Notes under the pieces: model-generated
Databases searched by the model: none
What the model saw: only the letters and a program-made list of their open reading frames with translations
What the model was told of the DNA's origin: nothing
Shown: positions 1-31,391 of the stretch, piece by piece
Position numbering within the stretch: the first letter of the stretch is position 1
Layout: each line of letters opens with the position of its first letter
Assembly (NCBI GenBank): GCA_033286805.1
Contig: GCA_033286805.1_4727.1
DNA length: 64,000 bases
Direction: 5' to 3' (one strand)
Origin: a phage
Translations under genes and position numbers: made by a program

Positions 1-1
1 T

Positions 2-1006
2 ATTAAGCTGCAGTTCAATCCACCGTCAAATGAACGTGTCGCAATTATGCATGAACGTATTGCACGCGATAAAATCCTGGGTGGACGTGATAGTACCGGT
101 TTCCTGTTTTCGGCAACCTCGATTATCACCATGAAGCACGCAATCGAATTAGCATTAGAATGCTGCTACATGGCCAACGTACCGAACCTGGATATCCAGC
201 GTTTGAAAGACATTATTCCGGTTACCGATGTTCCAGCACTGTTGTTGAACGTGCTGGTAACCATGTATCCGTACGGATATCCTTACGTACAGACCTGCTA
301 TCAGAATCCAGAAACCTGCGACTATCGTGTTGAAGATACCGTAAGCTTTGCGAAGCTCTATCAAGTTGACAACAGTGCGATTACCAAACGTATGCGACAG
401 ATCATGACCGAAGGTCCGGTCATGACCGATGAACTTTTGCGTGAGTATGCAAACGAACTGGGTGAAACAAACTCCCGTACGCTGGATCTGTCCGACAACG
501 GTTCTGTTATCATTGAACTTGAAGTACCGAAGATCTCACGACAAATCGCCATGGGCGAGCGCTGGTTAAGCGATACCCTGGAAGATCTGCGTGATATTCT
601 ATCGCGTCCGTCAATGACCGAAGAAGAGCGCGATCGTGTTATTCGTGAACGTCAGTTCTATAGCTGGATGCGTCAGTATGATGCATGGATCAAATCGATG
701 CATGTGTCAGTAAACGGCACCATGCGTCGTGTAAGCGATGCGGATACAGCAACGGTATTAGCGCAGCTGTCTCGTGATAGTGATCTTCGTGAACGCTATA
801 TCGATGGGTTGATGCAATTCATCGGTGATTCGACGATTGCGCTCGCAGCAATGCCTGCCTGGAAATGTCCGAAATGTAATGCCGATATTGCTGACAATCT
901 GCGTGACCAGAAATACTACGATCTGATTGCTTTGGATGTACCCCAGCTTTTTTTTACCCTAAACTCCGTCCAATCTCTTCAGGAGGGGATGGACGCGGTA
1001 TTCTAA
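2..1006 (+). CDS. hypothetical protein, 5' end truncated by window edge
   Basis: ORF 47..1006 has no in-frame stop upstream back to position 2, so the gene starts outside the window. No motif recognised. Confidence 0.5.
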   Translation: MKLQFNPPSNERVAIMHERIARDKILGGRDSTGFLFSATSIITMKHAIELALECCYMANVPNLDIQRLKDIIPVTDVPALLLNVLVTMYPYGYPYVQTCYQNPETCDYRVEDTVSFAKLYQVDNSAITKRMRQIMTEGPVMTDELLREYANELGETNSRTLDLSDNGSVIIELEVPKISRQIAMGERWLSDTLEDLRDILSRPSMTEEERDRVIRERQFYSWMRQYDAWIKSMHVSVNGTMRRVSDADTATVLAQLSRDSDLRERYIDGLMQFIGDSTIALAAMPAWKCPKCNADIADNLRDQKYYDLIALDVPQLFFTLNSVQSLQEGMDAVF

Positions 1007-1068
1007 TCGATCCGCGATACGGGTTACATGACGGACAACTTGTTCGTAATGATGGAAAAATCTGGGAA

Positions 1069-1428
1069 TTGCTGTTAGCGCGTAAAGGCGATGGTGGCAT
1101 GAAATTGAACATCGAAATGGGTATTGCGTACGATACCATGTTTGGTTTGTACGATCGGGTTAACGACTGGACGCCGTTGAAATGGGTGGCTCAGCACCCC
1201 GCTGAAGATCCCTGGGACAGATTAGGGATTAAACCCTTAATCGAGGATTATGTCCGATTCGGTATTAAAGAGTTCATGACGCTGGATGCGTTTTTAAAAG
1301 CACCGTATCCTTACGCGCAAACGGTACTCAAAATCGCACAAGACGAACTGCGGAAACGTAGTGCGGTACTGGACGACGATGAGGACAAGTTACGACGAGA
1401 AGAAGAACGTTTACGAAACGGAAAATAA
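1069..1428 (+). CDS. hypothetical protein
   Basis: 119-aa ORF; start may be the internal ATG near 1099. No motif recognised. Confidence 0.4.
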   Translation: MLLARKGDGGMKLNIEMGIAYDTMFGLYDRVNDWTPLKWVAQHPAEDPWDRLGIKPLIEDYVRFGIKEFMTLDAFLKAPYPYAQTVLKIAQDELRKRSAVLDDDEDKLRREEERLRNGK

Positions 1429-1429
1429 A

Positions 1430-1939
1430 ATGGCAAGATTTACCAGTTTGATTGGATTGGACATTTGGGAAACACCGGCTGACGTTCGGGTTATTCCTGT
1501 CAACACCGTCGGTGTGATGGGACGTGGTCTTGCCAAGCAGGCAGCCGATCGTGTGCCCGGTCTTCTTGAAGCGTACCGTAAGCAATGTCAAGATGGGTTT
1601 AAGGTGGGCGAAGTCGTGTCATATCAGCATGGCGAGAACGATCAGCTCACTTACGTGTTGTTTCCATCAAAATCGGATTGGCGTGAAAGAACACGACGCG
1701 AGTATATCGTTAACGGTTTACTGGCGTTAAAAGCATGGTTATTGGAGCTTCAGTTCGAAAGAGATGGCTTCTCATACCACCGTCCGGCTGAACCGTTGAT
1801 TGTCGCAATTCCTCCGGTTGGTTCTGGTTGCGGTAATATCGGTTACGGACAATCCGAAACAATCCAGCCTCAGTGGGTACGCGCACAAATCAAACAGTAT
1901 CTTGCCACCGTGCCGAACGTTCATTTCTACTTGTTCTAA
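1430..1939 (+). CDS. macro-domain-like protein (putative ADP-ribose binding/processing)
   Basis: ATG at 1430 follows the upstream stop at 1426-1428. N-terminal VNTVGVMGRGLAKQ glycine-rich loop resembles macro/TARG1-type ADP-ribose-binding motif. By-eye call only. Confidence 0.45.
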   Translation: MARFTSLIGLDIWETPADVRVIPVNTVGVMGRGLAKQAADRVPGLLEAYRKQCQDGFKVGEVVSYQHGENDQLTYVLFPSKSDWRERTRREYIVNGLLALKAWLLELQFERDGFSYHRPAEPLIVAIPPVGSGCGNIGYGQSETIQPQWVRAQIKQYLATVPNVHFYLF

Positions 1940-1955
1940 CGCAACGGTAACATAA

Positions 1956-1987
1956 CCCTCTCCCAACCCAGCAGGGAAGGGAGAGGG
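1956..1987. terminator. GC-rich nested stem-loop between convergent genes
   Basis: CCCTCTCCC / GGGAGAGGG arms around loop AACCCAGCAGGGAA; lies between plus gene end 1939 and minus gene end 2005; TTATG follows on minus strand. Confidence 0.45.
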
Positions 1988-2004
1988 CTTATGCTGTTAT
2001 GCTA

Positions 2005-2379
2005 TTAATGTTCGTTCCAGATGGCATCTTCCGGTGGAACAATAGGATCTTTCTTCGGCATTGATGGCACTTCATGACGATGTTTACGGAACTGCCTATC
2101 AATAACCTCACGAAGCCGGTACGCGTCAACCCATGTTGATTTATTGAACAGCTCCAATGTCACAGTTAATCGTGTTCTTGACATTGAATAGCTTTTCTTT
2201 GCAATCAAATTGGGATAATTCAGTTGAGCGAACCACGCACGTATTTGTGCTTCGGTAAAAGCGATGCTGTAATAACTAAGTTTACCGTCATTAAAATCGT
2301 GCGCGTGGGTGTAGCGTCCAGCGTAACGCCAGACAAGATGCACATTCAGATCGATCCATGGTGGGGTGGTATCAGCCAT
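2005..2379 (-). CDS. hypothetical protein
   Basis: 124-aa ORF, first gene of the long minus-strand run. Confidence 0.45.
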   Translation of the reverse strand: MADTTPPWIDLNVHLVWRYAGRYTHAHDFNDGKLSYYSIAFTEAQIRAWFAQLNYPNLIAKKSYSMSRTRLTVTLELFNKSTWVDAYRLREVIDRQFRKHRHEVPSMPKKDPIVPPEDAIWNEH

Positions 2380-2388
2380 GTGTTACCC

Positions 2389-2958
2389 TCAACGATTCTT
2401 CATCACTTTACCCAGGCTTTCGATATTATCCCAAAAGCGATTTTTACTTGGCGCATCGCCAACGATAACCGACATCAAATCGCGACGTTCGCGACTGATG
2501 ATGCCCTGTGATTTCCAGATCACCATCGTCCAGCAAGCTGCCAGAACGAACAGATGGTTAATGCTCGGTTTGGTTTGCGCGATGAACGCAAGCCATGCCC
2601 AGATACCGGTGTATACTATCGTCACTAAAAAGAGCGAGATTGTTGCAACGACAACAACGAAGTTTTGGACAGCGGGTTGATTAGCGTTATCATGAATAGC
2701 GGTAAGATCAGGAAGGTTACCTTCAACTGAACTCGTTTCATCGATTTCCAATTCTTCGATTTCTTTTCGTGTGTCGGGAGCTAATCCGGCATCATCAAGA
2801 TGCTTTTTTAACCGCTGTATACTTAATCGTTGACCGACAGGAATGTTGATGTTGTCGTAACTATTAAGCGCATCAACCAGGGAGCGTCCATCAACGAGAA
2901 CCAAGCTCGCGGTACCCATCGTTTGCGGTTTTATTTTGTAAAGGTCTTTTACTTTCAT
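2389..2958 (-). CDS. hypothetical membrane protein
   Basis: 189-aa ORF with hydrophobic C-terminal segments (VVVVATISLFLVTIVYTGIWAWLAFIA, LFVLAACWTMVIW). Confidence 0.45.
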   Translation of the reverse strand: MKVKDLYKIKPQTMGTASLVLVDGRSLVDALNSYDNINIPVGQRLSIQRLKKHLDDAGLAPDTRKEIEELEIDETSSVEGNLPDLTAIHDNANQPAVQNFVVVVATISLFLVTIVYTGIWAWLAFIAQTKPSINHLFVLAACWTMVIWKSQGIISRERRDLMSVIVGDAPSKNRFWDNIESLGKVMKNR

Positions 2959-2979
2959 GTAGACACCACCTCCAACGTG

Positions 2980-5592
2980 TTAAGCGTCCGGCGTAAAATC
3001 AAAAGGAATGTCCGTACGAATGATATCGTAACGTTTTCCTAGGAAATAAAACTCTTCGGGAACCTGACCAGGAATAATGCTATCGCCGATGAACTGCGGA
3101 TACGCCCAGATGTACTGAGTGAGTCCTTCGAACATATCCAGGTTATTTGCATGGTTACCCATGATACGTTTCCAGAGTTCGCGTTTATACGGTGTTTTAA
3201 CATCGAATCCATAAAGCGGTGCAAGATCTTCACCAGGAACAAATCCCAGGTAATAATGGATCTGACTAACCGGGAAACCAAGCGTATCTCGCGGAATGGT
3301 GATCGCTTGCTCTGCCTTGGTGACATGCGTCTCAATAATCCAGTCGTAGCACTCCGAATAGAACCGGTCGAATTTCTCTGGGTTATACCACGCTTTGGGA
3401 AGATTGAGTTTCTCCGTGAACGCGTTCGACATGATCGTCGGCAAGAACGGAAGAACACCGGTTTTGATCTGCGTGTATTTCGATTTTACCCGATTAACCA
3501 AATTCCAGCAACTGTATCCTAACTGTTCGTTACAAAACTCAACGTAGAGATCGTAGTCACCACCGGATAATGGGTTGTTAATATCACCGATGTCTGCGGC
3601 ATATTTGTTGGGATATCGGTTATTGAAAGCCAGTTTGGTTTGGTAATCGTAGATACACGGTTTGTTGTTCGCTGTATTGATCCACCACCAGGGTTCACCT
3701 ACTTGCACACAAATGTCCTGGACATGGGGGTAGATGATATCAGCAAACGCGGTTAACACATCCCCTAACCACGCCATCGCCTGTTGGTTACATGGAGACA
3801 GCAACCAGGACGGTGGTGTGTATCCGGTTGCTGCGATGTTTCCTTCCCAATCCTGCTGCGCCCACTCGAACGGGCAGGCTGTACTCATCAATTCGTAACT
3901 TAAACTGATGGTGACAGAGAAATGGTGTTTTGCGGCGTATGCAGCGAAAGCTTCATGCCATGCGATACAGGGTGGATTTAATACATCCGTGGTGTTCACC
4001 AGTAACTTACCTGCACTTGGCGTCCAGACAGTATCGTAGAAATGCGACATTCCAACATAGTGCACTAATTCATCCTGATATCCAGCATAAACCAGGTTTT
4101 CAAATACACGCTCTGGCGTGATGTTGTAATGGTCATCATAAGCGGTTATCGCACGAAGTTCGTGTGGCGTACAATGATGGCGATTAACCGTCATTTCCTG
4201 ATACACCCCATCGATAGGAAGAATCTCGAGGGTTAAACCAAGATCGATCGGTGTTTCCAGATAGGTCGTTTCTGTAGCACCTTCTTTATAATGTCGAGAA
4301 CTCATGCTGAACATCAACGACGTTACCGATTCGAGTTCGATAGGCTCGTCAGCATAGAACCCCGCCATTGCGTCATTGAAATCGATCGTTACGATTGCGC
4401 TTCTACCGTCTTCAGAGACATCGGTGGCGTATCGGGTTAATGAGATATACTGACGGCTATCGTCTTTGTGTACGACGGTTAAAACCGGCGGGTTTTCGGT
4501 ATCTGCAAAGTTACGCTGATCGCCAGTAAACGTGATCTTCGCTTTAAAGATCAAACCGAATAACGACGTCATGGGATCATACGCAATACAACCGTGATCC
4601 AGCGTATCCGTTGTCCGCCATTCTATCCCGACCAACCCGTTAGCGGTATGGCATCGCATATACGCATTAAGGACCATGTCTTCACTGACAACCGCGAAGT
4701 TCTCTGTTGACTGACCGTTGATAATCCAATACATCGGTTGCCAGAGGTTACGCGTACCTTTTGCGTAGCGGTAGGTTGGCGCGCCTTTAGGGTTGCCGTT
4801 ATTAAGATGGAATACAGCAGTACCTTGATAATGGTCGTTCGTATTAATCGGAACACTGTAAGCATCACCGAGATCCGTACGTTCCACCTTCTTGACTGTT
4901 GCGTTTTCAAATAACCCACGCAGCGCGGGTAAACCGATATCATCAGGCGCGTTTTCTCGACGAATCGCATCCGCGATGCGGTGGGCTAGGGCGGGGTAAA
5001 TGGTCTCACCCTGTTGTAGGTTTGCAAGACCTACAAAGCGATCGGGAGCGATGCCAGCAATCAATAACTCAACATCACCCTTCGTTCTATCGTCATTAAG
5101 ATATTTCAGTCCGGTAAGGTCAAGATGCTGAATAAGCGACAACAGGTTGTATTTACGGTTTTCAACAGTTAGTACAAGATCGCCTGCCCAAACCAAACTT
5201 CCCTCATCCGCTGTTACTTTAACGGATTGTCGGCCTGTGGTAGACGTTGTTGTCGTTTTATTTAATTGTCCTTGTAGGAAGTCGGTTGCGAGGTCAAAGG
5301 CAATACCGTAACGGTCAGCGACCGCTTGCATGATTTCACGTAACTGGGTATCTTCTTCAATGATAATCTTGACAGGTATTCCCAAGAACGCTTTAGCGAG
5401 GTCTCGTTTAACCAACGAGACGAATACGGATTTGTAGTATCGGCTTCCATCTTTCCCTTTAAAAAGAATGGAGGTTGTTTCGGGTGCCGATAGAACACGT
5501 GCAAATACAACATCGTCGGAAGTAAGAGAAAGTCCGTTTTTCTCGTTGACCAATCTTAGTATTTCATTTTGCGCGGTTTCATGTAACTTCAT
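2980..5592 (-). CDS. putative tail fiber/tailspike-like protein (shared N-terminal module, paralog A)
   Basis: 870 aa; N-terminal ~150 aa (KRDLAKAFLGIPVKI ... ADRYGIAFD) shared with ORFs at 11326, 15669 and 52039; large divergent C-terminus; sits beside the tail fiber genes. Confidence 0.55.
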   Translation of the reverse strand: MKLHETAQNEILRLVNEKNGLSLTSDDVVFARVLSAPETTSILFKGKDGSRYYKSVFVSLVKRDLAKAFLGIPVKIIIEEDTQLREIMQAVADRYGIAFDLATDFLQGQLNKTTTTSTTGRQSVKVTADEGSLVWAGDLVLTVENRKYNLLSLIQHLDLTGLKYLNDDRTKGDVELLIAGIAPDRFVGLANLQQGETIYPALAHRIADAIRRENAPDDIGLPALRGLFENATVKKVERTDLGDAYSVPINTNDHYQGTAVFHLNNGNPKGAPTYRYAKGTRNLWQPMYWIINGQSTENFAVVSEDMVLNAYMRCHTANGLVGIEWRTTDTLDHGCIAYDPMTSLFGLIFKAKITFTGDQRNFADTENPPVLTVVHKDDSRQYISLTRYATDVSEDGRSAIVTIDFNDAMAGFYADEPIELESVTSLMFSMSSRHYKEGATETTYLETPIDLGLTLEILPIDGVYQEMTVNRHHCTPHELRAITAYDDHYNITPERVFENLVYAGYQDELVHYVGMSHFYDTVWTPSAGKLLVNTTDVLNPPCIAWHEAFAAYAAKHHFSVTISLSYELMSTACPFEWAQQDWEGNIAATGYTPPSWLLSPCNQQAMAWLGDVLTAFADIIYPHVQDICVQVGEPWWWINTANNKPCIYDYQTKLAFNNRYPNKYAADIGDINNPLSGGDYDLYVEFCNEQLGYSCWNLVNRVKSKYTQIKTGVLPFLPTIMSNAFTEKLNLPKAWYNPEKFDRFYSECYDWIIETHVTKAEQAITIPRDTLGFPVSQIHYYLGFVPGEDLAPLYGFDVKTPYKRELWKRIMGNHANNLDMFEGLTQYIWAYPQFIGDSIIPGQVPEEFYFLGKRYDIIRTDIPFDFTPDA

Positions 5593-5614
5593 TAAAAACC
5601 TCAGCCCTTTAGAA

Positions 5615-6256
5615 TTAAATGTACTGCTTACCGCCCACGAAGGAAGTTAACCAGTTCCCGCTGACGAGTTGTGATACCCAGCCTGGAACGGCTCTACCAT
5701 TCTGGCTCATGATGTTACCACACCAACCAGGGAATCCGGGACGGATGTAATAGAAAGTTAAATTGTAGAGATGGCAATTCCATACCGCAACGTTATGTTT
5801 ACCAGAAACCGCTTTAAAGACAAACGCGACAGGTAACGGAGACGATAACAATTCGGTCACAGGGACGGCTGACCAGTTCGCATTCGCGTTCCATGGCTGC
5901 CAGGTATGGCTACGCGAGTCACCGTTAACGTTACCGTTGCTACCGCGTCCGCCCGCGTTCCACCATAGCGACGGACTCATGTTCTTAAGTGAGGTAAATT
6001 GCTGTGGTGGAATATTCGGAATGATAACAGGGTTGGTACCTTGTCCGTGTTTCTTTTCTTTTGCGTTCACATACCCGCTTATCGATTCCAGGTATTTGGT
6101 ACCAGGATAATTGTTCTGGACTTGTGTCGCAATATCACGAACGTCGAACGTCCAGCAGATCATGGTGTTGTAGTAAGCGTCGGTGTTATCGTGCCATGAG
6201 TTACCATCTTGTAAACGTGCGCCGCTATTCGGTGTTTTATCTGTGCTTATAGCCAT
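5615..6256 (-). CDS. hypothetical protein
   Basis: 213-aa ORF, Trp/Asn/Gly-rich; no motif recognised. Confidence 0.5.
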   Translation of the reverse strand: MAISTDKTPNSGARLQDGNSWHDNTDAYYNTMICWTFDVRDIATQVQNNYPGTKYLESISGYVNAKEKKHGQGTNPVIIPNIPPQQFTSLKNMSPSLWWNAGGRGSNGNVNGDSRSHTWQPWNANANWSAVPVTELLSSPLPVAFVFKAVSGKHNVAVWNCHLYNLTFYYIRPGFPGWCGNIMSQNGRAVPGWVSQLVSGNWLTSFVGGKQYI

Positions 6257-6438
6257 GGTGTTGTCCTATACGTTGGTGGTTGAGGTGGCGGATATCGGAT
6301 GCGTGTTGTCGTCAGGTAATACATACAGAAACGCCCACTGATAAAACAGTAGCTTCTTTTAAATGGAATTTAGATATCGCGTATTTCTACCTCGTTTCTA
6401 TTCTCAAAAAGGAAATTTCATACGATGACGCCATAGCA

Positions 6439-6468
6439 GCTCCTCCTTCCCTGACGGGTTGGAGGAGC
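6439..6468. terminator. GC-rich stem-loop
   Basis: GCTCCTCC / GGAGGAGC arms; loop TTCCCTGACGGGTT is the reverse complement of the loop of the hairpin at 41502; immediately after the stop of gene 6477..6983. Confidence 0.35.
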
Positions 6469-6476
6469 ATACTTAA

Positions 6477-6983
6477 TTACTTACTGATAACCTCAACGGA
6501 GTTGGGATCAGCGATCAATGCACGGTCGGTAGAACAATTGAAGAAGACCGTACCAACACCATCACCGTTCGAGTTCAGGGTTGAACTTGCGTAAGACAGG
6601 GTTGGTTTATTCATGCGGTAGAAGCGTTCGCTGGTTGCGGTATTGAACCCCAGGTCAACGTAGTCTTTCACCGTGGTATACAACTGGGTGGACTCGAAAA
6701 CGGTTACCGGAGAGTCGACGGTAAATTGACTGCCTTCGTCCACAACCAGAACTTTATCGTTCCAGATTTCAGTGGTTGAGAACTTCGGTTTCCAATGTTC
6801 GAATTCCTGGGTTGCACCCCAGCAAGAATACACAGCGAGATTGCTGTTCTTCTCGACAGGTTTCAACCCCACCAGTTGTGTCAGGTCTTTATCCAGGTTC
6901 GGTAAACCTTCCAGCGTAGCACACCCACCCAGAGAAAGCACCATTAGCATACCAAGAACGATCGCGCAAAGTTTCTTTGTCAT
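6477..6983 (-). CDS. putative lipoprotein
   Basis: N-terminus MTKKLCAIVLGMLMVLSLGGC has a signal peptide and lipobox-like LGGC; 168 aa. Confidence 0.5.
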   Translation of the reverse strand: MTKKLCAIVLGMLMVLSLGGCATLEGLPNLDKDLTQLVGLKPVEKNSNLAVYSCWGATQEFEHWKPKFSTTEIWNDKVLVVDEGSQFTVDSPVTVFESTQLYTTVKDYVDLGFNTATSERFYRMNKPTLSYASSTLNSNGDGVGTVFFNCSTDRALIADPNSVEVISK

Positions 6984-7024
6984 CGGATTTCCTCATGTGT
7001 TAACGGGAGTGATTTCCATAGTAA

Positions 7025-7441
7025 TTACACAGTTGTAGGAAATTCCGGCCAATCGATATTTGGTGCAGCATCGGTATCGACAGCAGTCACCGCATCAGTG
7101 TAATCCAAAACAGCATTAAGTCGGGTCGTTTCTTCCTGAGTCAGTTTTCGCCCAGCCCGTAATTTTAACTGAATAAGATCGATGGAAGCCAGCGCAGAAT
7201 CAATCAAAGATTGTTTTATCTGTTCTGCCTCGGCGACGAGATCTTCGTGTTGCCGCTCGGGTTCCGGAGGTGCGGTAAACTCACCATTTGAGTATGACCA
7301 ACCTATTCCAGGTGACACAGCCTCCTTATCGTCGATATGAACCAACTGCTGATTGTCGAATATATCGAGCTCTGCTTCACCGTCGTAAACAATCGTGTTT
7401 ACTACCACCCCATTTTCAATAACAGCGTATGATGTACTCAT
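7025..7441 (-). CDS. tail fiber assembly chaperone (Tfa-like)
   Basis: Start taken at internal MSTSYAVIENG (ATG ~7441), abutting the fiber gene stop. C-terminal region (LIQLKLRAGRKLTQEETTRLNAVLDYTDAVTAVD ... IDWPEFP) resembles lambda/P2-type Tfa proteins. Confidence 0.6.
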   Translation of the reverse strand: MSTSYAVIENGVVVNTIVYDGEAELDIFDNQQLVHIDDKEAVSPGIGWSYSNGEFTAPPEPERQHEDLVAEAEQIKQSLIDSALASIDLIQLKLRAGRKLTQEETTRLNAVLDYTDAVTAVDTDAAPNIDWPEFPTTV

Positions 7442-10400
7442 TACATAAACTCCTCGATGATGCAAATCCCATTAGCACCACGCCCACCAGGCTTAGCGGT
7501 TCCTGAGTAAGAGTTATCGTAAGCACCGCCACCACCCGAACCAGGCGCGAGGCCGTTATGGGCGGTGCCAACACCAGCGCGACCGCCACCGCCCCAATAT
7601 GACGCACCCCCACATCCACCGACGGCAAGAGTACCGGCTTGTCCATCGTTACCGTCTCCGCCCGGAATGCGTATATCCCCGGTAGTAGGTACGCCCCCAT
7701 AGCCACCGCCAGTGTTTGTGACAGTTGTTTTTCCTGCGCCTTGCCCGCCGGGAGCAGTTAGCAGGGATGCAAATTTACTATCCCCACCCCCGTTCCCAGA
7801 CGTCGCCCCAGAGCCACCGGAACCACCAGAACCAATTACAACAGAATAACTAGCAGCTGTTACCGTTATAACCGAAATTACTGTTCCGCCAGCGCCTCCC
7901 CCAGCGCCAAAAAACGTTTCGCTGTTGGAATAAGCCTGACAGCCACCGCCGCCACCGCCGCCACCGGTTATTGTTACTCTAATCCGTTTTGTTCCTTGTG
8001 TTGGGGTGTACGTCCCTGACGATGTGAAAACACGCATGTTCAGTAAACGTCCGACATATCCGCTAGAATCGGCTAAACCAAGATCTTTAGCTGCTAACGT
8101 GATATTAGCTGTACCGTCAAACGGTTTACCGTTAATCGTGCGCGCGGTCTGCAACTTCGTCGCCGTTGCTGCGTTTCCTGATGTGTTCTGGTTCCCCGCA
8201 GCGTTAACACCCGGCAGATTGATGTTCGCACTACCGTCGAAAGATACCCCACCAATGGTGCGGGCTGTTTTCAGTTTTGTCGCCGTGGCAGCATTACCGG
8301 TTGTGTCTTGGTTACCGGTGGTGTTTACCCCAGGCAGGTTGATATTTGCCGTTCCGTTAAATGAAACACCGCCAATCGTCCTTGCTGTTTGAAGCCTCGT
8401 CGCGGTAGCGGCGTTACCCGTCGTGTTCTGGTTTCCGGTTGTGTTCACACCAGGGATACTATCTTTCGAGGTGTAGATCTGTGCCCATTCTGACCAGTTC
8501 GAATCGGCCGCATCACGACGTGAACGTAGGTAAGCTGGAGCGTATGCACCTGAGGTACCTGACCACCCAATGAGGATTTCACCTTCACCGACCGATGAAG
8601 CCCCTTTAAGATGAATGACGTTACCATAAGCGGTGGGATACCCGTTATTGTACGCTTCATACATCTGGATGCCCGCATTGCTGCCCTGAGCCGTGTTAGC
8701 TAATGCCGTAACACGACCTTTGGAGGCGAGAGCGGTAATACTGAAGCTAATATCCTTAGTACCGTCAAAGGCGACCCCATTAATCTTCCGTGCTGTTTGG
8801 AGTTTCGTGGCGGTAGCCGCATTACCAGAGGTACTCTGATTACCTGCTTTGTTCACGCCAGGCAAATCAATGTTGGCTGTTCCATCAAAGGACACGCCCC
8901 CTATGGTTCTCGCTGTCTGGAGTTTTGTTGCTGAGCCAGCGTTTCCGGAAGTGCTTTGATTACCTGCCGCGTTGACACCTGGTAGGTTAATGCTAGCAGA
9001 GCCATCAAAAGAAACTCCACCGATCGTGATTGGTGTTTTCAATTTCGTGGCTGTCGCAGCATTACCCGTCGTATTCTGATTGCCAGCCGCATTAACGCCT
9101 GGTAATGCGATATCGGTCGTACCATCGAACGCGACACCACCGATTTTACGGGCAGTCTGTAGCTTGGTCGCTGTAGCCGCGTTGCCGCTGGTATTTTGCG
9201 TGCCCGCTTTATTTACGCCTGGTAAATCAATGTTCGCAGTACCATCAAAAGAAACACCCCCGATGGTTCTCGCGGTCTCAAGTTTGGTTGCGCTTCCTGC
9301 GTTTCCGCTGGTGTCTTGGTTTCCCGCTGCATCAACACCCGGTAGACTGATGCTGGCCGAACCATCGAAACTCACACCACCGATCGTAACAGCGGTTTTC
9401 AATTTCGTAGCGGTTGCAGCGTTCCCCGTGGTATTTTGGTTACCTGTCGCATTCACACCCGGTAATGCAATATCCGCTGTTCCGTCAAAGGCAACGCCAC
9501 CGATTCTACGTGCAGTTTGTAGCTTGGTTGCACTAGCAGCGTTACCGCTGGTATTCTGGGTGCCAGCTTTGTTAACACCAGGGAGATCGATGTTAGCAGA
9601 ACCATCGAAGCTAACGCCACCTATCGTTCTTGCAGTAGCAAGTTTAGCTGCTGTAGCAGCGGCGTTACCGACTTTTAACCATTCGCCCCATGGACCATCC
9701 TGGCCGTTCCATGATGCCGTTAAACTACGTACGTAAATATTGCCGGTACATACAGTGTAACGTTGCGTTCCACCGAATTGCCCGGTTGGGAGCACTTCAA
9801 TGTAACCTGCGGCATTTGCTTCAGGGAAATTGTGGGCGACGTCCGCGTTCGTTGATACTGGTTTAGACCAAATACCCACAGACGCTTCAACCGGACCGTA
9901 CGTATTCAGATTTGCGTCGGTGGGAAGTTGTCCTCGAAAACGCTGGAATTGTGTTGCCGATAACCCCAACGTTGTTTGCATGCTTTCAATGCTGGATTGC
10001 TGAAGTAACGTCCGTGCTGTCGACGTAATCACGGTAAGCGCAACTTTATTAACACCGGTGAAATACGGGAGTTTGTCTGCTGATGTCGCTAAACCTGAAA
10101 AGGCGGTCAGTAATGCGTTAAGGGGCTGCTTCCCAGCTAACGCATTTGTTACCGTCGTTGCGAAATTAGGATCACTTCCTATAGCTCGAGCCAGCTTATT
10201 AAGCGTATTTAGCGTCGCTGGTGACGAGTCGATCAGCGCCGTGATCGCACGCATCACAAATTCCGTGTTGGCTATCTGTCGACTGCTATTGTTAACTGCT
10301 GCGGTGGGCGCTGCTGGCGTACCAGTGAATACAGGGCTATTAAGATCCGCCTTGAGGGCGATGAGACGTTTAAGCGCTTCAACATCAACTTTCAGGTTTT

Positions 10401-11319
10401 CCCATCCGATGAGAGAACCACCACTGTTGGTATGATAACGGTTGTACCAGAAGTCACCGTTAACGCCAAAAAAGAATATACATTTCTCTTCGTTTTGTGG
10501 ACCGGAACTATTTCGTGATGAGTCGATATATTTGATTTCAATAAGACCGCTAAACACCACTCCTGGGATTATATTGTTGTCTCCAGCTGATTGTGATACT
10601 TGGTACATCCCCGGGGTTGCAGCTTTAACCCACGTTAAGAATTCTGTTACTCCAGCGTTACCGCTGAAACGCTTAACGTCGGTAAGTATCGCCCCATAAC
10701 CGAACATACCGGGTAAAGCAACTCGCCCATCGGTACGGTCACGAATATCTGTTGCAACAACAGGCAATTGTTTACGAACGGCATTAACCGCTTTAGGCGT
10801 GGCCGATTTTGTCTCGTCGTCGCTATCGGTTTCATTACTTAGAATAGTTAAACCGCGTGTAGTAGTAGTTGCATCAGGAAGAAATGCGTTATCCAACACC
10901 TTAAGCTGTACTGCACTCGTATTACTAACAACGACATGCACTTGACAGTTAAGAACGCTGGTTGCGCCTTCGGCAGGCGTAGGCTTATATCTTTCTGGTG
11001 CACTGCAGACGGCAATCAGAACACCTTGGTCGTCATACAGACCGATCTCACGTACCCAGAACCCACCTTGACCAGCAGGAATAATACCCTCAACGATAAT
11101 CCTAGTTGTGCTATCACCATCCGCATGGATATTAGAAACTTCCCCACGATAAACTTCGTGAACAAGCGCTGTTTGGCTGGCGGTAGGGGTTGGGATCGAG
11201 CCGTTACCATCACCAACGGCAAAGTGTGTGATTTTTAGTTTCTCACCGTCGGGAAGTAACGCAGCGGTGATACGTTCTGCTCCTTTATCGGTAACTACCG
11301 TTATATATGCTGTACTCAT
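7441..11319 (-). CDS. long tail fiber protein
   Basis: 1292 aa. N-terminal tail-fiber/collar-like domain (PTPTASQTALVHEVYRGE); eleven 39-aa tandem repeats; C-terminal polyglycine-rich region (GGGGGGGG ... GGGAGG). Confidence 0.75.
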   Translation of the reverse strand: MSTAYITVVTDKGAERITAALLPDGEKLKITHFAVGDGNGSIPTPTASQTALVHEVYRGEVSNIHADGDSTTRIIVEGIIPAGQGGFWVREIGLYDDQGVLIAVCSAPERYKPTPAEGATSVLNCQVHVVVSNTSAVQLKVLDNAFLPDATTTTRGLTILSNETDSDDETKSATPKAVNAVRKQLPVVATDIRDRTDGRVALPGMFGYGAILTDVKRFSGNAGVTEFLTWVKAATPGMYQVSQSAGDNNIIPGVVFSGLIEIKYIDSSRNSSGPQNEEKCIFFFGVNGDFWYNRYHTNSGGSLIGWENLKVDVEALKRLIALKADLNSPVFTGTPAAPTAAVNNSSRQIANTEFVMRAITALIDSSPATLNTLNKLARAIGSDPNFATTVTNALAGKQPLNALLTAFSGLATSADKLPYFTGVNKVALTVITSTARTLLQQSSIESMQTTLGLSATQFQRFRGQLPTDANLNTYGPVEASVGIWSKPVSTNADVAHNFPEANAAGYIEVLPTGQFGGTQRYTVCTGNIYVRSLTASWNGQDGPWGEWLKVGNAAATAAKLATARTIGGVSFDGSANIDLPGVNKAGTQNTSGNAASATKLQTARRIGGVAFDGTADIALPGVNATGNQNTTGNAATATKLKTAVTIGGVSFDGSASISLPGVDAAGNQDTSGNAGSATKLETARTIGGVSFDGTANIDLPGVNKAGTQNTSGNAATATKLQTARKIGGVAFDGTTDIALPGVNAAGNQNTTGNAATATKLKTPITIGGVSFDGSASINLPGVNAAGNQSTSGNAGSATKLQTARTIGGVSFDGTANIDLPGVNKAGNQSTSGNAATATKLQTARKINGVAFDGTKDISFSITALASKGRVTALANTAQGSNAGIQMYEAYNNGYPTAYGNVIHLKGASSVGEGEILIGWSGTSGAYAPAYLRSRRDAADSNWSEWAQIYTSKDSIPGVNTTGNQNTTGNAATATRLQTARTIGGVSFNGTANINLPGVNTTGNQDTTGNAATATKLKTARTIGGVSFDGSANINLPGVNAAGNQNTSGNAATATKLQTARTINGKPFDGTANITLAAKDLGLADSSGYVGRLLNMRVFTSSGTYTPTQGTKRIRVTITGGGGGGGGCQAYSNSETFFGAGGGAGGTVISVITVTAASYSVVIGSGGSGGSGATSGNGGGDSKFASLLTAPGGQGAGKTTVTNTGGGYGGVPTTGDIRIPGGDGNDGQAGTLAVGGCGGASYWGGGGRAGVGTAHNGLAPGSGGGGAYDNSYSGTAKPGGRGANGICIIEEFM
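8095..8454 (-). repeat. second block of the same 117-bp coding repeat, ~3 copies
   Basis: Fiber residues ~956-1075 repeat the same 39-aa unit after an intervening non-repeat domain. Confidence 0.6.
8740..9663 (-). repeat. in-frame tandem coding repeats, ~8 x 117 bp, inside the tail fiber gene
   Basis: Repeated unit encodes IGGVSFDGSANIDLPGVNKAGTQNTSGNAATATKLQTAR. The same periodicity produces spurious antisense ORFs at 9080..9736. Confidence 0.7.
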
Positions 11320-17948: not shown

Positions 17949-18122
17949 TTCTATTCCTCAAATAAAGATTGTCTTTTAACGCGACATGATTACAAGTACA
18001 CAGGTTACTGGATTTCTGTAAAAGTTAATTTTCGTAAACTAAAAGAAAATGTATCCGTGTTTCTTGGTTCTTCCCCTCCACAGCCTCAGGAAGAGAAGAA
18101 CCGTTTGCTAAGTTGTTATGTA

Positions 18123-23201: not shown

Positions 23202-23283
23202 GATTACTGTCCTTTTGAAATATGTTTAGATAAGGAGGATTTACCGGGTATTAAAAAGTTATTTGGTATGTAATGTTTTTTTT

Positions 23284-23883
23284 TTACTTAGGTTCCAGTA
23301 TTGGTCCGAACAACCAGAATGTCAGACGCTGGTAAACCTGTTCGATGACTGCGGCTTCTGTTTGCTCTTCTAGCGCTTTCCCTTTCTTATGTTGTATTTC
23401 TGGCGGGATGTCGCCGTTGTAAACATACCCTGCTGAGAAGTCCCACGCCAGCCGTTTACCGAAAGTAGGTAAGAACACCTCTTCGAATCGGAACGCTTTC
23501 GAATTCCAATGAAGCAGCTGATCGGATTCAACATGTAAAGCTTTATTACGTTTGCTTGGCATGTTTCCGAAGTACTGAACGATAGCTGATTTCATAACCC
23601 GATCTGCGAAGTCTTTGGCTTCGACCTCATCGAGGGGAGGCAGACGATGCGATAGATTCAGCTTGCGTTGTTCAACATCTATCTTACGCATCGCTTTAAT
23701 CAAATCACCAGGAACGATTTTACCCTTATGGCCTTCCTGTCGGTGTATGAAACACCCCTGGAATAGCACGCAAAGTTCTTGAGGTGCTGTACTTTCCATT
23801 CGTCCGTAAGCAACGATCACCGAACGACGACGATCAATAACTTCGCGGATAAACCGCGGCTCAGTAATACTCACCACTGTCAT
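23284..23883 (-). CDS. hypothetical protein
   Basis: 199-aa ORF. Confidence 0.5.
   Translation of the reverse strand: MTVVSITEPRFIREVIDRRRSVIVAYGRMESTAPQELCVLFQGCFIHRQEGHKGKIVPGDLIKAMRKIDVEQRKLNLSHRLPPLDEVEAKDFADRVMKSAIVQYFGNMPSKRNKALHVESDQLLHWNSKAFRFEEVFLPTFGKRLAWDFSAGYVYNGDIPPEIQHKKGKALEEQTEAAVIEQVYQRLTFWLFGPILEPK

Positions 23884-28700: not shown

Positions 28701-31391
<2,691 letters not shown>

What the first reader, a model, noticed from the sequence alone, without database searches (positions are those of the whole stretch)
1430..1939. Macro-domain-like protein as a possible counter-defence enzyme
The N-terminal glycine-rich loop resembles macro or TARG1-like ADP-ribose-binding proteins. 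Phage macro-domain proteins could reverse ADP-ribosylation imposed by host systems such as DarT-like toxins. It sits in a small plus-strand cluster apart from the main gene run.
Basis: partly seen in the sequence, partly recalled or inferred. Interest (0 to 1): 0.45.

Follow-up and report, generated by a model that had tools for sequence, protein, structure and literature searches.

The report
Known phage anti-DarT macrodomain (AdfM)

Summary
The ORF at 1430-1939 (+) is real: 169 aa, under strong purifying selection (dN/dS 0.06-0.11). It is a macrodomain: it passes the Pfam Macro cut-off, and its best sequence and fold matches among solved structures are the DarG antitoxin macrodomains of Thermus aquaticus and M. 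tuberculosis, with TARG1 next. The residues shown to matter in DarG are kept: N25, K81, W84, R32 and G133. Gly135 occupies the TARG1 Asp125 position, as in DarG.

The window is 93-97% identical to Escherichia phage Goslar, a nucleus-forming chimallivirus. The protein is 98.2% identical to Goslar gp83. Morgan et al. 2026 (Cell Rep, PMC13309987) list gp83 as a homologue of AdfM ('anti-DarT factor macro'). They showed that PhiKZ AdfM removes DarT2 ADP-ribose from DNA and that PhiKZ and PhiPA3 need AdfM to resist DarTG2; tagged AdfM enters the phage nucleus.

The protein is only the macro half of DarG. It has no DarT-binding domain, and I found no DarT in the window. The Goslar-type protein itself has not been tested. 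One small new point: relatives show the true start is ATG 1430, not the RefSeq start 51 nt upstream.

The parts
1430..1939 (+). Gene for a 169-aa stand-alone DarG-type macrodomain, the orthologue of Goslar gp83 (AdfM family)
   Evidence: ORF and translation. Pfam Macro above cut-off. PDB best hits are DarG macrodomains. AF2 model has pLDDT 86.7 and Foldseek's top hit is 5M3E with TM 0.87. 98.2% identical to Goslar gp83. dN/dS is 0.06-0.11.
1499..1534 (+). Codons for residues 24-35 (VNTVGVMGRGLA): first ADP-ribose-binding loop, including Asn25 (codon 1502-1504), the equivalent of T. aquaticus DarG N22 and PhiKZ AdfM N23
   Evidence: Alignments; N25, G28, G31 and G33 are invariant in 14 homologues. 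N22A impairs DarG (PMC5179494), and mutating the conserved active-site Asn, N23A in the construct list, impairs PhiKZ AdfM (PMC13309987).
1670..1681 (+). Codons for K81-S-D-W84: Lys81 (1670-1672) is the equivalent of the catalytic Lys80 of DarG and Lys84 of TARG1; Trp84 (1679-1681) is the equivalent of DarG Trp83, proposed to stack on the modified thymine
   Evidence: Alignments; K81 and W84 are invariant. The roles of K80 and W83 come from PMC5179494.
1811..1849 (+). Codons for residues 128-140 (PPVGSGCGNIGYG): second, diphosphate-binding Gly-rich loop. G131, G133 and G135 are the equivalents of DarG G117, G119 and G121. Gly135 sits at the position of TARG1 Asp125. Cys134 replaces DarG Asn120.
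   Evidence: Alignments; P128, G131, G133 and G135 are invariant. Mean pLDDT falls to about 60 in residues 131-140.
1099..1428 (+). Upstream 109-aa gene (Goslar gp082 homologue, function unknown). Its TAA ends one base before the macro ATG, so the two are probably co-transcribed and translationally coupled.
   Evidence: No Pfam or NCBIfam hit; PHROG 12109 has unknown function. The same gene order is found in L004, L008 and L010.
1..1006 (+). 3' part of the Goslar gp081 homologue (554 aa in Goslar, cut by the window edge), an earlier gene of the same + strand cluster; function unknown
   Evidence: PHROG 4585 matches at E 1.9e-50, function unknown.
1956..1987 (.). GC-rich hairpin between the convergent macro gene and the minus-strand gene 2005-2379; a probable two-way transcription terminator
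   Evidence: RNA fold gives -32.8 kcal/mol (+ strand, z -5.0) and -37.4 kcal/mol (- strand, z -7.0). Annotated as a putative terminator in Goslar. The simple terminator scan did not call it, because there is no clean T-run.

Best explanation
The gene encodes a stand-alone DarG2-type macrodomain ADP-ribosyl glycohydrolase, the Goslar-lineage member of the published AdfM family. Host DarT2 toxins of DarTG2 defence systems attach ADP-ribose to thymidine in single-stranded phage DNA (TNTC motif). This enzyme binds the ADP-ribose in the pocket formed by its two Gly-rich loops. Trp84 stacks on the thymine, and Lys81, helped by Asn25, cleaves the thymine-ribose bond, restoring clean DNA for replication and packaging. 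The phage is a nucleus-forming chimallivirus, so the enzyme probably works inside the phage nucleus after selective import. It acts purely as an enzyme: it lacks the C-terminal DarT-binding domain of bacterial DarG, and no DarT is found nearby or among the 78 window ORFs scanned. Shown here: fold, clade, conserved catalytic residues, architecture, orthology, selection. Taken from the literature on PhiKZ and PhiPA3: DNA de-ADP-ribosylation (PhiKZ), protection against DarTG2 (both), nuclear localisation (both, plus Asesino). Inferred for this protein: all biochemical and cellular activity.
For: Pfam Macro is above its cut-off. Best PDB sequence hits are DarG macrodomains 5M31/5M3E (E 6e-15 single sequence, 5e-42 profile) and 5M3I (1.6e-41), then T. 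africanus DarTG 7OMU (1.6e-35); TARG1 reaches only about 1e-13. The AF2 model has pLDDT 86.7 and pTM 0.85. Foldseek ranks 5M3E first (E 1.5e-14, TM 0.87, rmsd 1.8), then 5M31, 5M3I, 7OMU and TARG1. PADLOC DarG matches at E 3.9e-22 and NCBIfam antitoxin_DarG at E 7.5e-23, both over the macro half only. N25, R32, G133, K81 and W84 align with DarG N22, K29, G119, K80 and W83, the residues whose mutation was tested in PMC5179494. N25, K81 and W84 are invariant across homologues. The window is 97.1% identical to Goslar over 1-8000, and the protein is 98.2% identical to gp83. Goslar gp83 is named among the AdfM homologues in Fig. 1B of PMC13309987. That paper shows PhiKZ AdfM removes DarT2 ADP-ribose from an oligonucleotide and rescues DarT2 toxicity, that AdfM deletion costs 3-6 logs of titre on DarTG2 hosts, and that the protein localises to the phage nucleus. 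tblastn to PhiKZ gp104 gives E 6e-14. dN/dS is 0.06-0.11. DarTG2 is an active anti-phage system in E. coli (PMC11825919).
Against: The Goslar-type protein has never been assayed; in the paper it appears only in an alignment. It is only about 31% identical to the tested PhiKZ enzyme and about equally distant from bacterial DarG at 33%. DarG Asn120, an ADP-ribose contact, is Cys134 here. Two insertions (about residues 110-122 and 138-148) flank the second binding loop and are modelled with low confidence, with pLDDT 57-60, so substrate range could differ. There is no BLASTP-detectable synteny with the PhiKZ or PhiPA3 locus. Nuclear import and the presence of DarT2 in this phage's natural hosts were not testable here. 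The PADLOC and Pfam window scans list only the top 25 families, so the absence of DarT is not absolute.
Confidence: 0.8

Rival explanations
1. The enzyme reverses a different nucleic-acid or protein ADP-ribosylation. Candidate substrates are RNA ADP-ribosylation by CmdT-like toxins, another DNA base adduct, or protein Glu/Asp-ADP-ribose as for TARG1. It would therefore counter a defence other than, or in addition to, DarTG2.
For: TARG1 is the second-best structural and sequence neighbour. Macrodomains of this clade share the catalytic Lys. Lineage-specific insertions and the N120-to-Cys change lie near the binding loop. Other ADP-ribosylating defences exist (PMC11618068, listed).
Against: DarG outscores TARG1 by about 90 bits with the profile. 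TARG1 Asp125 is Gly here, as in DarG, and the DarG-specific Trp (Ala90 in TARG1) is conserved. The authors of PMC13309987 state that DarG2 macrodomains act exclusively on DNA ADP-ribosylation. Guanine adducts are handled by NADAR enzymes rather than macrodomains.
Confidence: 0.1
2. It is a housekeeping metabolite enzyme, as older annotations imply (Appr-1''-p phosphatase, Poa1p-like, O-acetyl-ADP-ribose deacetylase). It would process NAD-derived small molecules rather than macromolecular adducts.
For: The best PHROG hit, phrog_335, is labelled 'phosphatase'. The Goslar record notes CDD Macro_Poa1p_like. Some metagenome relatives are named O-acetyl-ADP-ribose deacetylase. Poa1p structures are found at Foldseek E about 5e-8.
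Against: The Poa1p and YmdB matches are far weaker than DarG: profile E 5e-5 against 5e-42, and TM 0.63-0.72 with rmsd above 5 A. These labels are legacy names for the whole superfamily. The family's tested phage members act on DNA.
Confidence: 0.06
3. It is the antitoxin of a phage-borne DarTG toxin-antitoxin module, or a non-catalytic ADP-ribose reader.
For: It hits DarG models.
Against: It lacks the DarT-binding C-terminal domain: 169 aa, covering only positions 7-146 of the 338-position DarG model and scoring 81 bits against a cut-off of 250. The four neighbouring genes have no Pfam hit, and no DarT appears among the families listed for 78 window ORFs. The catalytic Lys and Asn are conserved under purifying selection.
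Confidence: 0.03

Closest known systems
AdfM (anti-DarT factor macro) of chimalliviruses: PhiKZ gp104 and PhiPA3 gp108; Goslar gp83 is listed as a homologue (Morgan et al., Cell Rep 2026, PMC13309987)
   Same: Both are stand-alone DarG2-like macrodomains of about 160-170 aa encoded by a nucleus-forming jumbo phage. They share the 'MA.F' N-terminus and the active-site Asn and Lys. They also share an insertion between the long helix and the strand before the second Gly loop. The window protein is 98.2% identical to Goslar gp83.
   Different: It is only about 31% identical to the experimentally tested PhiKZ protein. It carries an extra Goslar-lineage insertion after the Gly loop (residues about 138-148) and has Cys at the DarG Asn120 position. 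The flanking genes are not detectably homologous to those of PhiKZ or PhiPA3. Activity and nuclear import are untested for this lineage.
DarG (DarG2) antitoxin macrodomain of DarTG2 systems (T. aquaticus 5M31/5M3E, M. tuberculosis 5M3I; Jankevicius et al. 2016, PMC5179494)
   Same: It is the best sequence and fold match, at 30-34% identity. The equivalents of N22, K29, K80, W83, G117, G119 and G121 are conserved. Gly occupies the TARG1 Asp125 position.
   Different: It has no C-terminal DarT-binding domain and no adjacent DarT gene. It is phage-encoded and scores below the NCBIfam equivalog cut-off (81 against 250 bits). It has two insertions relative to DarG.
TARG1 / OARD1 (human terminal ADP-ribose protein glycohydrolase, 4J5Q/R/S)
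   Same: Same macrodomain subclass, with the catalytic Lys in the same place (K84 aligns with K81). It is the second tier of fold matches, TM 0.79-0.84 normalised to TARG1 length.
   Different: About 20% identity. TARG1 Asp125 is Gly here, and TARG1 Ala90 is Trp here. TARG1 acts on protein Glu-ADP-ribose rather than thymidine-ADP-ribose DNA.
AdfN (phage NADAR orphan antitoxins against DarTG1; Johannesman et al. 2025, PMC11825919)
   Same: Same strategy: a phage carries an orphan copy of the antitoxin's enzymatic domain and erases DNA ADP-ribosylation.
   Different: It has an unrelated fold (NADAR, not macro). It is specific for guanine adducts made by DarT1 and has no effect on DarTG2.

Membership tests
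Macrodomain superfamily (Pfam PF01661) | Profile match above the curated gathering score | tested here: met
   25.4 bits against a cut-off of 22, E 1.4e-5, residues 23-141.
Macrodomain superfamily (Pfam PF01661) | Mixed beta-sheet sandwiched by helices (alpha/beta/alpha macro fold) | tested here: met
   The AF2 model (pLDDT 86.7, pTM 0.85) has six strands and four helices. The top 50 Foldseek PDB matches are all macrodomains or designs built on one.
DarG/TARG1-type macrodomain hydrolases | Catalytic lysine at the DarG K80 / TARG1 K84 position | tested here: met
   K81 aligns with it and is invariant in 14 homologues. Its role comes from PMC5179494.
DarG-type (DNA thymidine-ADP-ribose) macrodomain | Closest to DarG rather than to other macro clades by sequence and by fold | tested here: met
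   Profile E is 5e-42 and 1.6e-41 for DarG against 1e-13 for TARG1. Foldseek ranks 1-4 are DarG entries. PADLOC DarG matches at E 3.9e-22.
DarG-type (DNA thymidine-ADP-ribose) macrodomain | Asn22 and Trp83 equivalents present; Gly rather than Asp at the TARG1 D125 position | tested here: met
   N25, W84 and G135. One ADP-ribose contact differs: N120 is Cys134 here.
DarG antitoxin of a DarTG toxin-antitoxin system | C-terminal DarT-binding domain (full length about 330-350 aa) | tested here: not met
   The protein is 169 aa. It matches only positions 8-143 of 329 (PADLOC) and 7-146 of 338 (NCBIfam), and scores 81.3 bits against the equivalog cut-off of 250.
DarG antitoxin of a DarTG toxin-antitoxin system | Adjacent darT toxin gene | tested here: not met
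   The neighbours at 47-1006, 1099-1428, 2005-2379 and 2389-2958 have no Pfam hit at E<=1. No DarT appears among the families listed for 78 window ORFs (only the top 25 families are shown).
AdfM (chimallivirus anti-DarT factor macro) | Encoded by a chimallivirus (nucleus-forming jumbo phage) | tested here: met
   The window is collinear with Goslar at 93-97% identity. Goslar is described as nucleus-forming in PMC11895373 and PMC12571901. The chimallin gene itself lies outside the window.
AdfM (chimallivirus anti-DarT factor macro) | Stand-alone DarG2-like macrodomain homologous to PhiKZ gp104 | tested here: met
   tblastn to PhiKZ gp104 and PhiPA3 gp108 gives E 6e-14 over 96% of the query. The protein is 98.2% identical to Goslar gp83, which the paper lists.
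AdfM (chimallivirus anti-DarT factor macro) | Removes DarT2-made ADP-ribose from ssDNA and protects the phage from DarTG2 | not testable with these tools
   DNA de-ADP-ribosylation is shown for PhiKZ and protection for PhiKZ and PhiPA3. No data exist for the Goslar lineage.
AdfM (chimallivirus anti-DarT factor macro) | Selective import into the phage nucleus (PicA pathway) | not testable with these tools
   Localisation is shown for the PhiKZ, PhiPA3 and Asesino proteins. Import signals are surface patches that cannot be recognised from sequence.
TARG1/OARD1 | Lys84-Asp125 catalytic pair | tested here: not met
   The Lys is present (K81), but the Asp125 position is Gly135.

The most novel reading that the evidence does not exclude
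The Goslar-lineage AdfM is not functionally identical to PhiKZ AdfM. Its two insertions next to the ADP-ribose-binding loop could widen or shift its substrate range, for example to enterobacterial DarT2 variants with other motifs or to other ADP-ribosylated nucleic acids. Alternatively they could form the surface patch that its own nuclear import system recognises. One insertion (residues about 110-122) is shared with PhiKZ-like AdfM but absent from DarG and from non-chimallivirus phage macros such as phiEco32. The other (about 138-148) is unique to the Goslar lineage. A Cys also replaces the Asn120 contact.
Probability: 0.15. Interest if true: 0.4.

Novelty: already known. Interest (0 to 1): 0.15.

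Why it matters
It confirms that a raw-sequence reading can pick out a real counter-defence enzyme. Biologically, AdfM shows that the phage nucleus is not a perfect shield: nucleus-forming phages still need an enzyme that repairs DNA ADP-ribosylated by DarT2. For this window the practical value is modest. It extends the AdfM assignment to a Goslar variant that is widespread in E. coli, Salmonella and Shigella assemblies. It corrects the gene start. It also points to lineage-specific loops worth testing. Nothing here opens a new question.

Tried and rejected
1. The longer RefSeq gene model (start equivalent to window 1379, 186 aa) was rejected. L010 and L004 have in-frame stops before the ATG, and the overlap region evolves in the upstream gene's frame.
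2. A phage-borne DarTG module was rejected. The neighbours have no domain hits and no DarT appears in the window scans.
3. Synteny with the PhiKZ and PhiPA3 AdfM loci was tested by BLASTP of nine Goslar neighbours. Only the macro proteins match, so synteny neither supports nor contradicts common descent.
4. The weak Pfam DUF7242 hit (17.8 bits against a cut-off of 27) and the NCBIfam PRK00431 and TIGR04500 hits (E above 0.08) were treated as noise.
5. The 'phosphatase' (PHROG 335) and 'Poa1p-like' labels were judged to be legacy superfamily names, because DarG matches are far stronger.
6. The simple sigma-70 promoter and terminator scan found nothing useful in 1-3000. Chimalliviruses use their own RNA polymerases (general knowledge), so this is uninformative. 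The hairpin at 1956-1987 was found by folding instead.
7. The supplementary files of PMC13309987 (Fig. S1 and S2, which list the AdfM homologues) are not held, so I could not check what else is said about Goslar.

Full report
**Observation**

The + strand carries an ORF from ATG 1430 to TAA 1937-1939, encoding 169 aa. A second Gly-rich loop, PPVGSGCGNIGYG, lies at residues 128-140.

The gene is the last of a short + strand cluster: the ORF ending at 1006, then 1099-1428, then 1430-1939. The upstream gene's TAA ends one base before the ATG. After the gene comes a strong hairpin at 1956-1987, with -32.8 and -37.4 kcal/mol on the two strands and z-scores of -5.0 and -7.0. From 2005 to about 49650 the genes run on the minus strand, broken only by a few short + strand ORFs.

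**Where the window comes from**

Window 1-8000 is 97.1% identical to Escherichia phage vB_EcoM_Goslar (NC_048170, 91490-99446), and the rest is collinear at 93-96%. Goslar is a nucleus-forming jumbo phage, a chimallivirus (PMC11895373; PMC12571901).

The orthologue is Goslar gp083, annotated in RefSeq as 'macro domain-containing protein'. The window protein differs from it at 3 of 169 residues (D40E, Q54R, K58T) and at 11 of 510 nucleotides.

**Gene start**

RefSeq starts Goslar gp083 51 nt further upstream (window-equivalent 1379), overlapping gp082. Relatives contradict this:

- In L010 (84% identical protein), a 2-nt difference puts the upstream gene's TAA in frame directly before the ATG.
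- In L004 (46% identical), several in-frame stops precede the ATG.
- Between the window and L008, substitutions in 1379-1429 are synonymous, bar one conservative Lys/Arg change at the last codon, in the gp082 frame but change the amino acid in the macro frame.

Distant homologues, including PhiKZ gp104, also begin 'MA.F'.

**What the protein is**

- Pfam Macro (PF01661) scores 25.4 bits against a cut-off of 22.
- Against all PDB chains, the single sequence finds the DarG macrodomains of T. aquaticus (5M31/5M3E, E 6e-15) and M. tuberculosis (5M3I, E 2e-11).
- A profile of 14 homologues scores them at 5e-42 and 1.6e-41. T. africanus DarTG (7OMU) scores 1.6e-35, and human TARG1 only about 1e-13.
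- An AlphaFold2 model (pLDDT 86.7, pTM 0.85) searched with Foldseek against PDB gives the same order: 5M3E (TM 0.87 to the target, rmsd 1.8 A), 5M31, 5M3I, 7OMU, then TARG1, then Poa1p and other macrodomains.
- The PADLOC DarG model matches at E 3.9e-22 and NCBIfam antitoxin_DarG at E 7.5e-23. Both cover only the N-terminal macro half (positions 8-143 of 329 and 7-146 of 338). The NCBIfam score of 81 bits is far below the equivalog cut-off of 250.

The protein is therefore a DarG-type macrodomain without DarG's DarT-binding domain.

**Active site**

Jankevicius et al. 2016 (PMC5179494) showed that K80A inactivates T. aquaticus DarG. N22A, K29E and G119E impair it strongly, and W83 is proposed to stack on the modified thymine. 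The alignments give these equivalents:

| DarG residue | Window residue |
|---|---|
| N22 | N25 |
| K29 | R32 |
| K80 | K81 |
| W83 | W84 |
| G117, G119, G121 | G131, G133, G135 |

N25, K81 and W84 are invariant in the homologue alignment. TARG1's second catalytic residue, Asp125, corresponds to Gly135, as in DarG. TARG1 Ala90 corresponds to Trp84. On these discriminating positions the protein is DarG-like rather than TARG1-like.

Three features differ from DarG:

- Cys134 replaces the ADP-ribose contact Asn120.
- There is an insertion at about residues 110-122. PhiKZ, PhiPA3 and 201phi2-1 macros share it in shorter form. It is absent from the Seoulvirus, Erwinia-phage and phiEco32 macros.
- There is a second insertion at about residues 138-148, found only in the Goslar lineage.

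Both insertions are modelled with low confidence: block-mean pLDDT is 57 for residues 111-120 and 60 for residues 131-140.

**Is it a working gene?**

Pairwise dN/dS among four Goslar-like orthologues is 0.06-0.11, with dS up to 1.5. The gene order is kept in a relative whose macro protein is only 46% identical (L004) and in L008 and L010. That order is a minus-strand block of 286 and 439 aa, then + strand genes of 150, 536 and 119 aa, then the macro gene.

**Context checks**

The four neighbouring genes have no Pfam domain. Scans of 78 window ORFs against Pfam and PADLOC list no DarT or other ADP-ribosyltransferase (only the top 25 families are printed). The gene is therefore an orphan antitoxin-like enzyme, not a toxin-antitoxin module.

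**What is known**

Morgan et al., Cell Rep 2026 (PMC13309987) describe exactly this family as AdfM, 'anti-DarT factor macro'. Their findings:

- PhiKZ gp104 removes ADP-ribose from a DarT2-modified TNTC oligonucleotide. Mutating a conserved active-site asparagine (N23A in the construct list) reduces this activity.
- It rescues DarT2 toxicity in E. coli.
- Deleting it from PhiKZ costs 3-6 logs of titre on DarTG2 hosts; an AdfM mutant of PhiPA3 also loses titre. In PhiKZ the deletion raises ADP-ribosylation of phage DNA.
- The main block in PhiKZ is at DNA packaging.
- GFP-tagged AdfM of PhiKZ, PhiPA3 and Asesino localises to the phage nucleus. For PhiKZ, nuclear concentration depends on PicA.

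Goslar gp83 (YP_009820768.1) is one of the sequences in their Figure 1B alignment. The text gives no experiments on it; 'Goslar' occurs once in the paper. An antisense screen also noted that PhiKZ104 knock-down lowers ChmA accumulation without a plaque defect (PMC12571901).

Related counter-defences are AdfA, AdfB (a DarT binder in ICP1, PMC11481870) and AdfN (NADAR enzymes against DarTG1, inactive against DarTG2, PMC11825919). The AdfN paper also documents DarTG2 as an active defence in E. coli.

**Mechanism proposed for this gene**

- Shown here: the fold, the clade, the catalytic residues, the stand-alone architecture and the orthology.
- Taken from the literature on homologues: hydrolysis of thymidine-linked ADP-ribose on ssDNA, protection against DarTG2, and action in the phage nucleus.
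- Inferred: that this 31%-identical Goslar-lineage protein does the same in enterobacterial hosts.

I put this at about 0.8. The main rival (about 0.1) is a shifted or broader substrate range, given the altered loop region. Housekeeping 'phosphatase or deacetylase' roles and a TA-antitoxin role are unlikely, at about 0.06 and 0.03.

**Breadth of the family**

tblastn finds DarG-like macros in 174 phage records. Most are PhiKZ-like Pseudomonas phages. Others are Seoulvirus and Erwinia jumbo phages, and non-jumbo phiEco32-like podophages. A full-library HMM search finds 17,577 cluster representatives at E<=1e-3 and 2,216 at E<=1e-30. The best 150 are a mix of stand-alone proteins of about 150 aa and DarG-like proteins of 250-370 aa with an N-terminal macrodomain.

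**Verdict**

What remains new is minor: a corrected start codon and lineage-specific loops of unknown meaning.

Noticed in passing
window 1379-1429 (Goslar NC_048170 92868-92918): The RefSeq model of Goslar gp083 (186 aa) and many GenBank models (186 or 217 aa) start too far upstream and overlap gp082. Comparative evidence fixes the start at ATG 1430 (169 aa), which newer NCBI annotations already use.
   Followed up: yes
window about 18030-18060, 23233-23284 and 29024: Compared with Goslar, the window lacks three small accessory genes: gp096 (Goslar 109585-110085), gp108 (115238-115654) and gp120 (121396-122103). The flanks are otherwise collinear at 93-96% identity.
   Followed up: partly
window 7441-11319 (-), especially about 8454-10055: The tail-fibre gene (1292 aa against 1324 aa in Goslar gp090) has a repeat-rich central region that matches Goslar only at 65-84% and in shuffled register. 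Elsewhere identity is about 95%, which suggests receptor-binding diversification.
   Followed up: no
protein of window 1430-1936; cluster members: The exact protein occurs on 65 contigs. Near-identical ones sit on contigs of 235-259 kb in NCBI isolate assemblies labelled E. coli, Shigella flexneri and several Salmonella serovars. Goslar-like jumbo phage genomes are therefore often co-assembled with enterobacterial isolates, whether by carrier state or contamination.
   Followed up: partly
window 29014-31083 (-) and elsewhere: The window encodes an NAD-dependent DNA ligase, a thymidylate synthase, a GNAT acetyltransferase, a cell-wall hydrolase and four DUF7941 paralogues. An NAD-consuming ligase alongside an ADP-ribose eraser is worth a note, but I did not pursue it.
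   Followed up: no
L005 6001-6453 (JGI metagenome contig Ga0598252_0000182): A 150-aa stand-alone DarG-like macro (P0010, 35% identical) sits among many small ORFs next to RuvB-like, PD-(D/E)XK and SSB genes, with no DarT nearby. This is probably another phage or mobile-element orphan antitoxin.
   Followed up: no
phage records (for example phiEco32 gp37, L015 259-699): DarG-like macrodomains with the catalytic Asn and Lys also occur in non-nucleus-forming E. coli podophages of the phiEco32 group, and in Seoulvirus and Erwinia jumbo phages. Macro-type anti-DarT enzymes may therefore reach well beyond the PhiKZ-like phages.
   Followed up: partly
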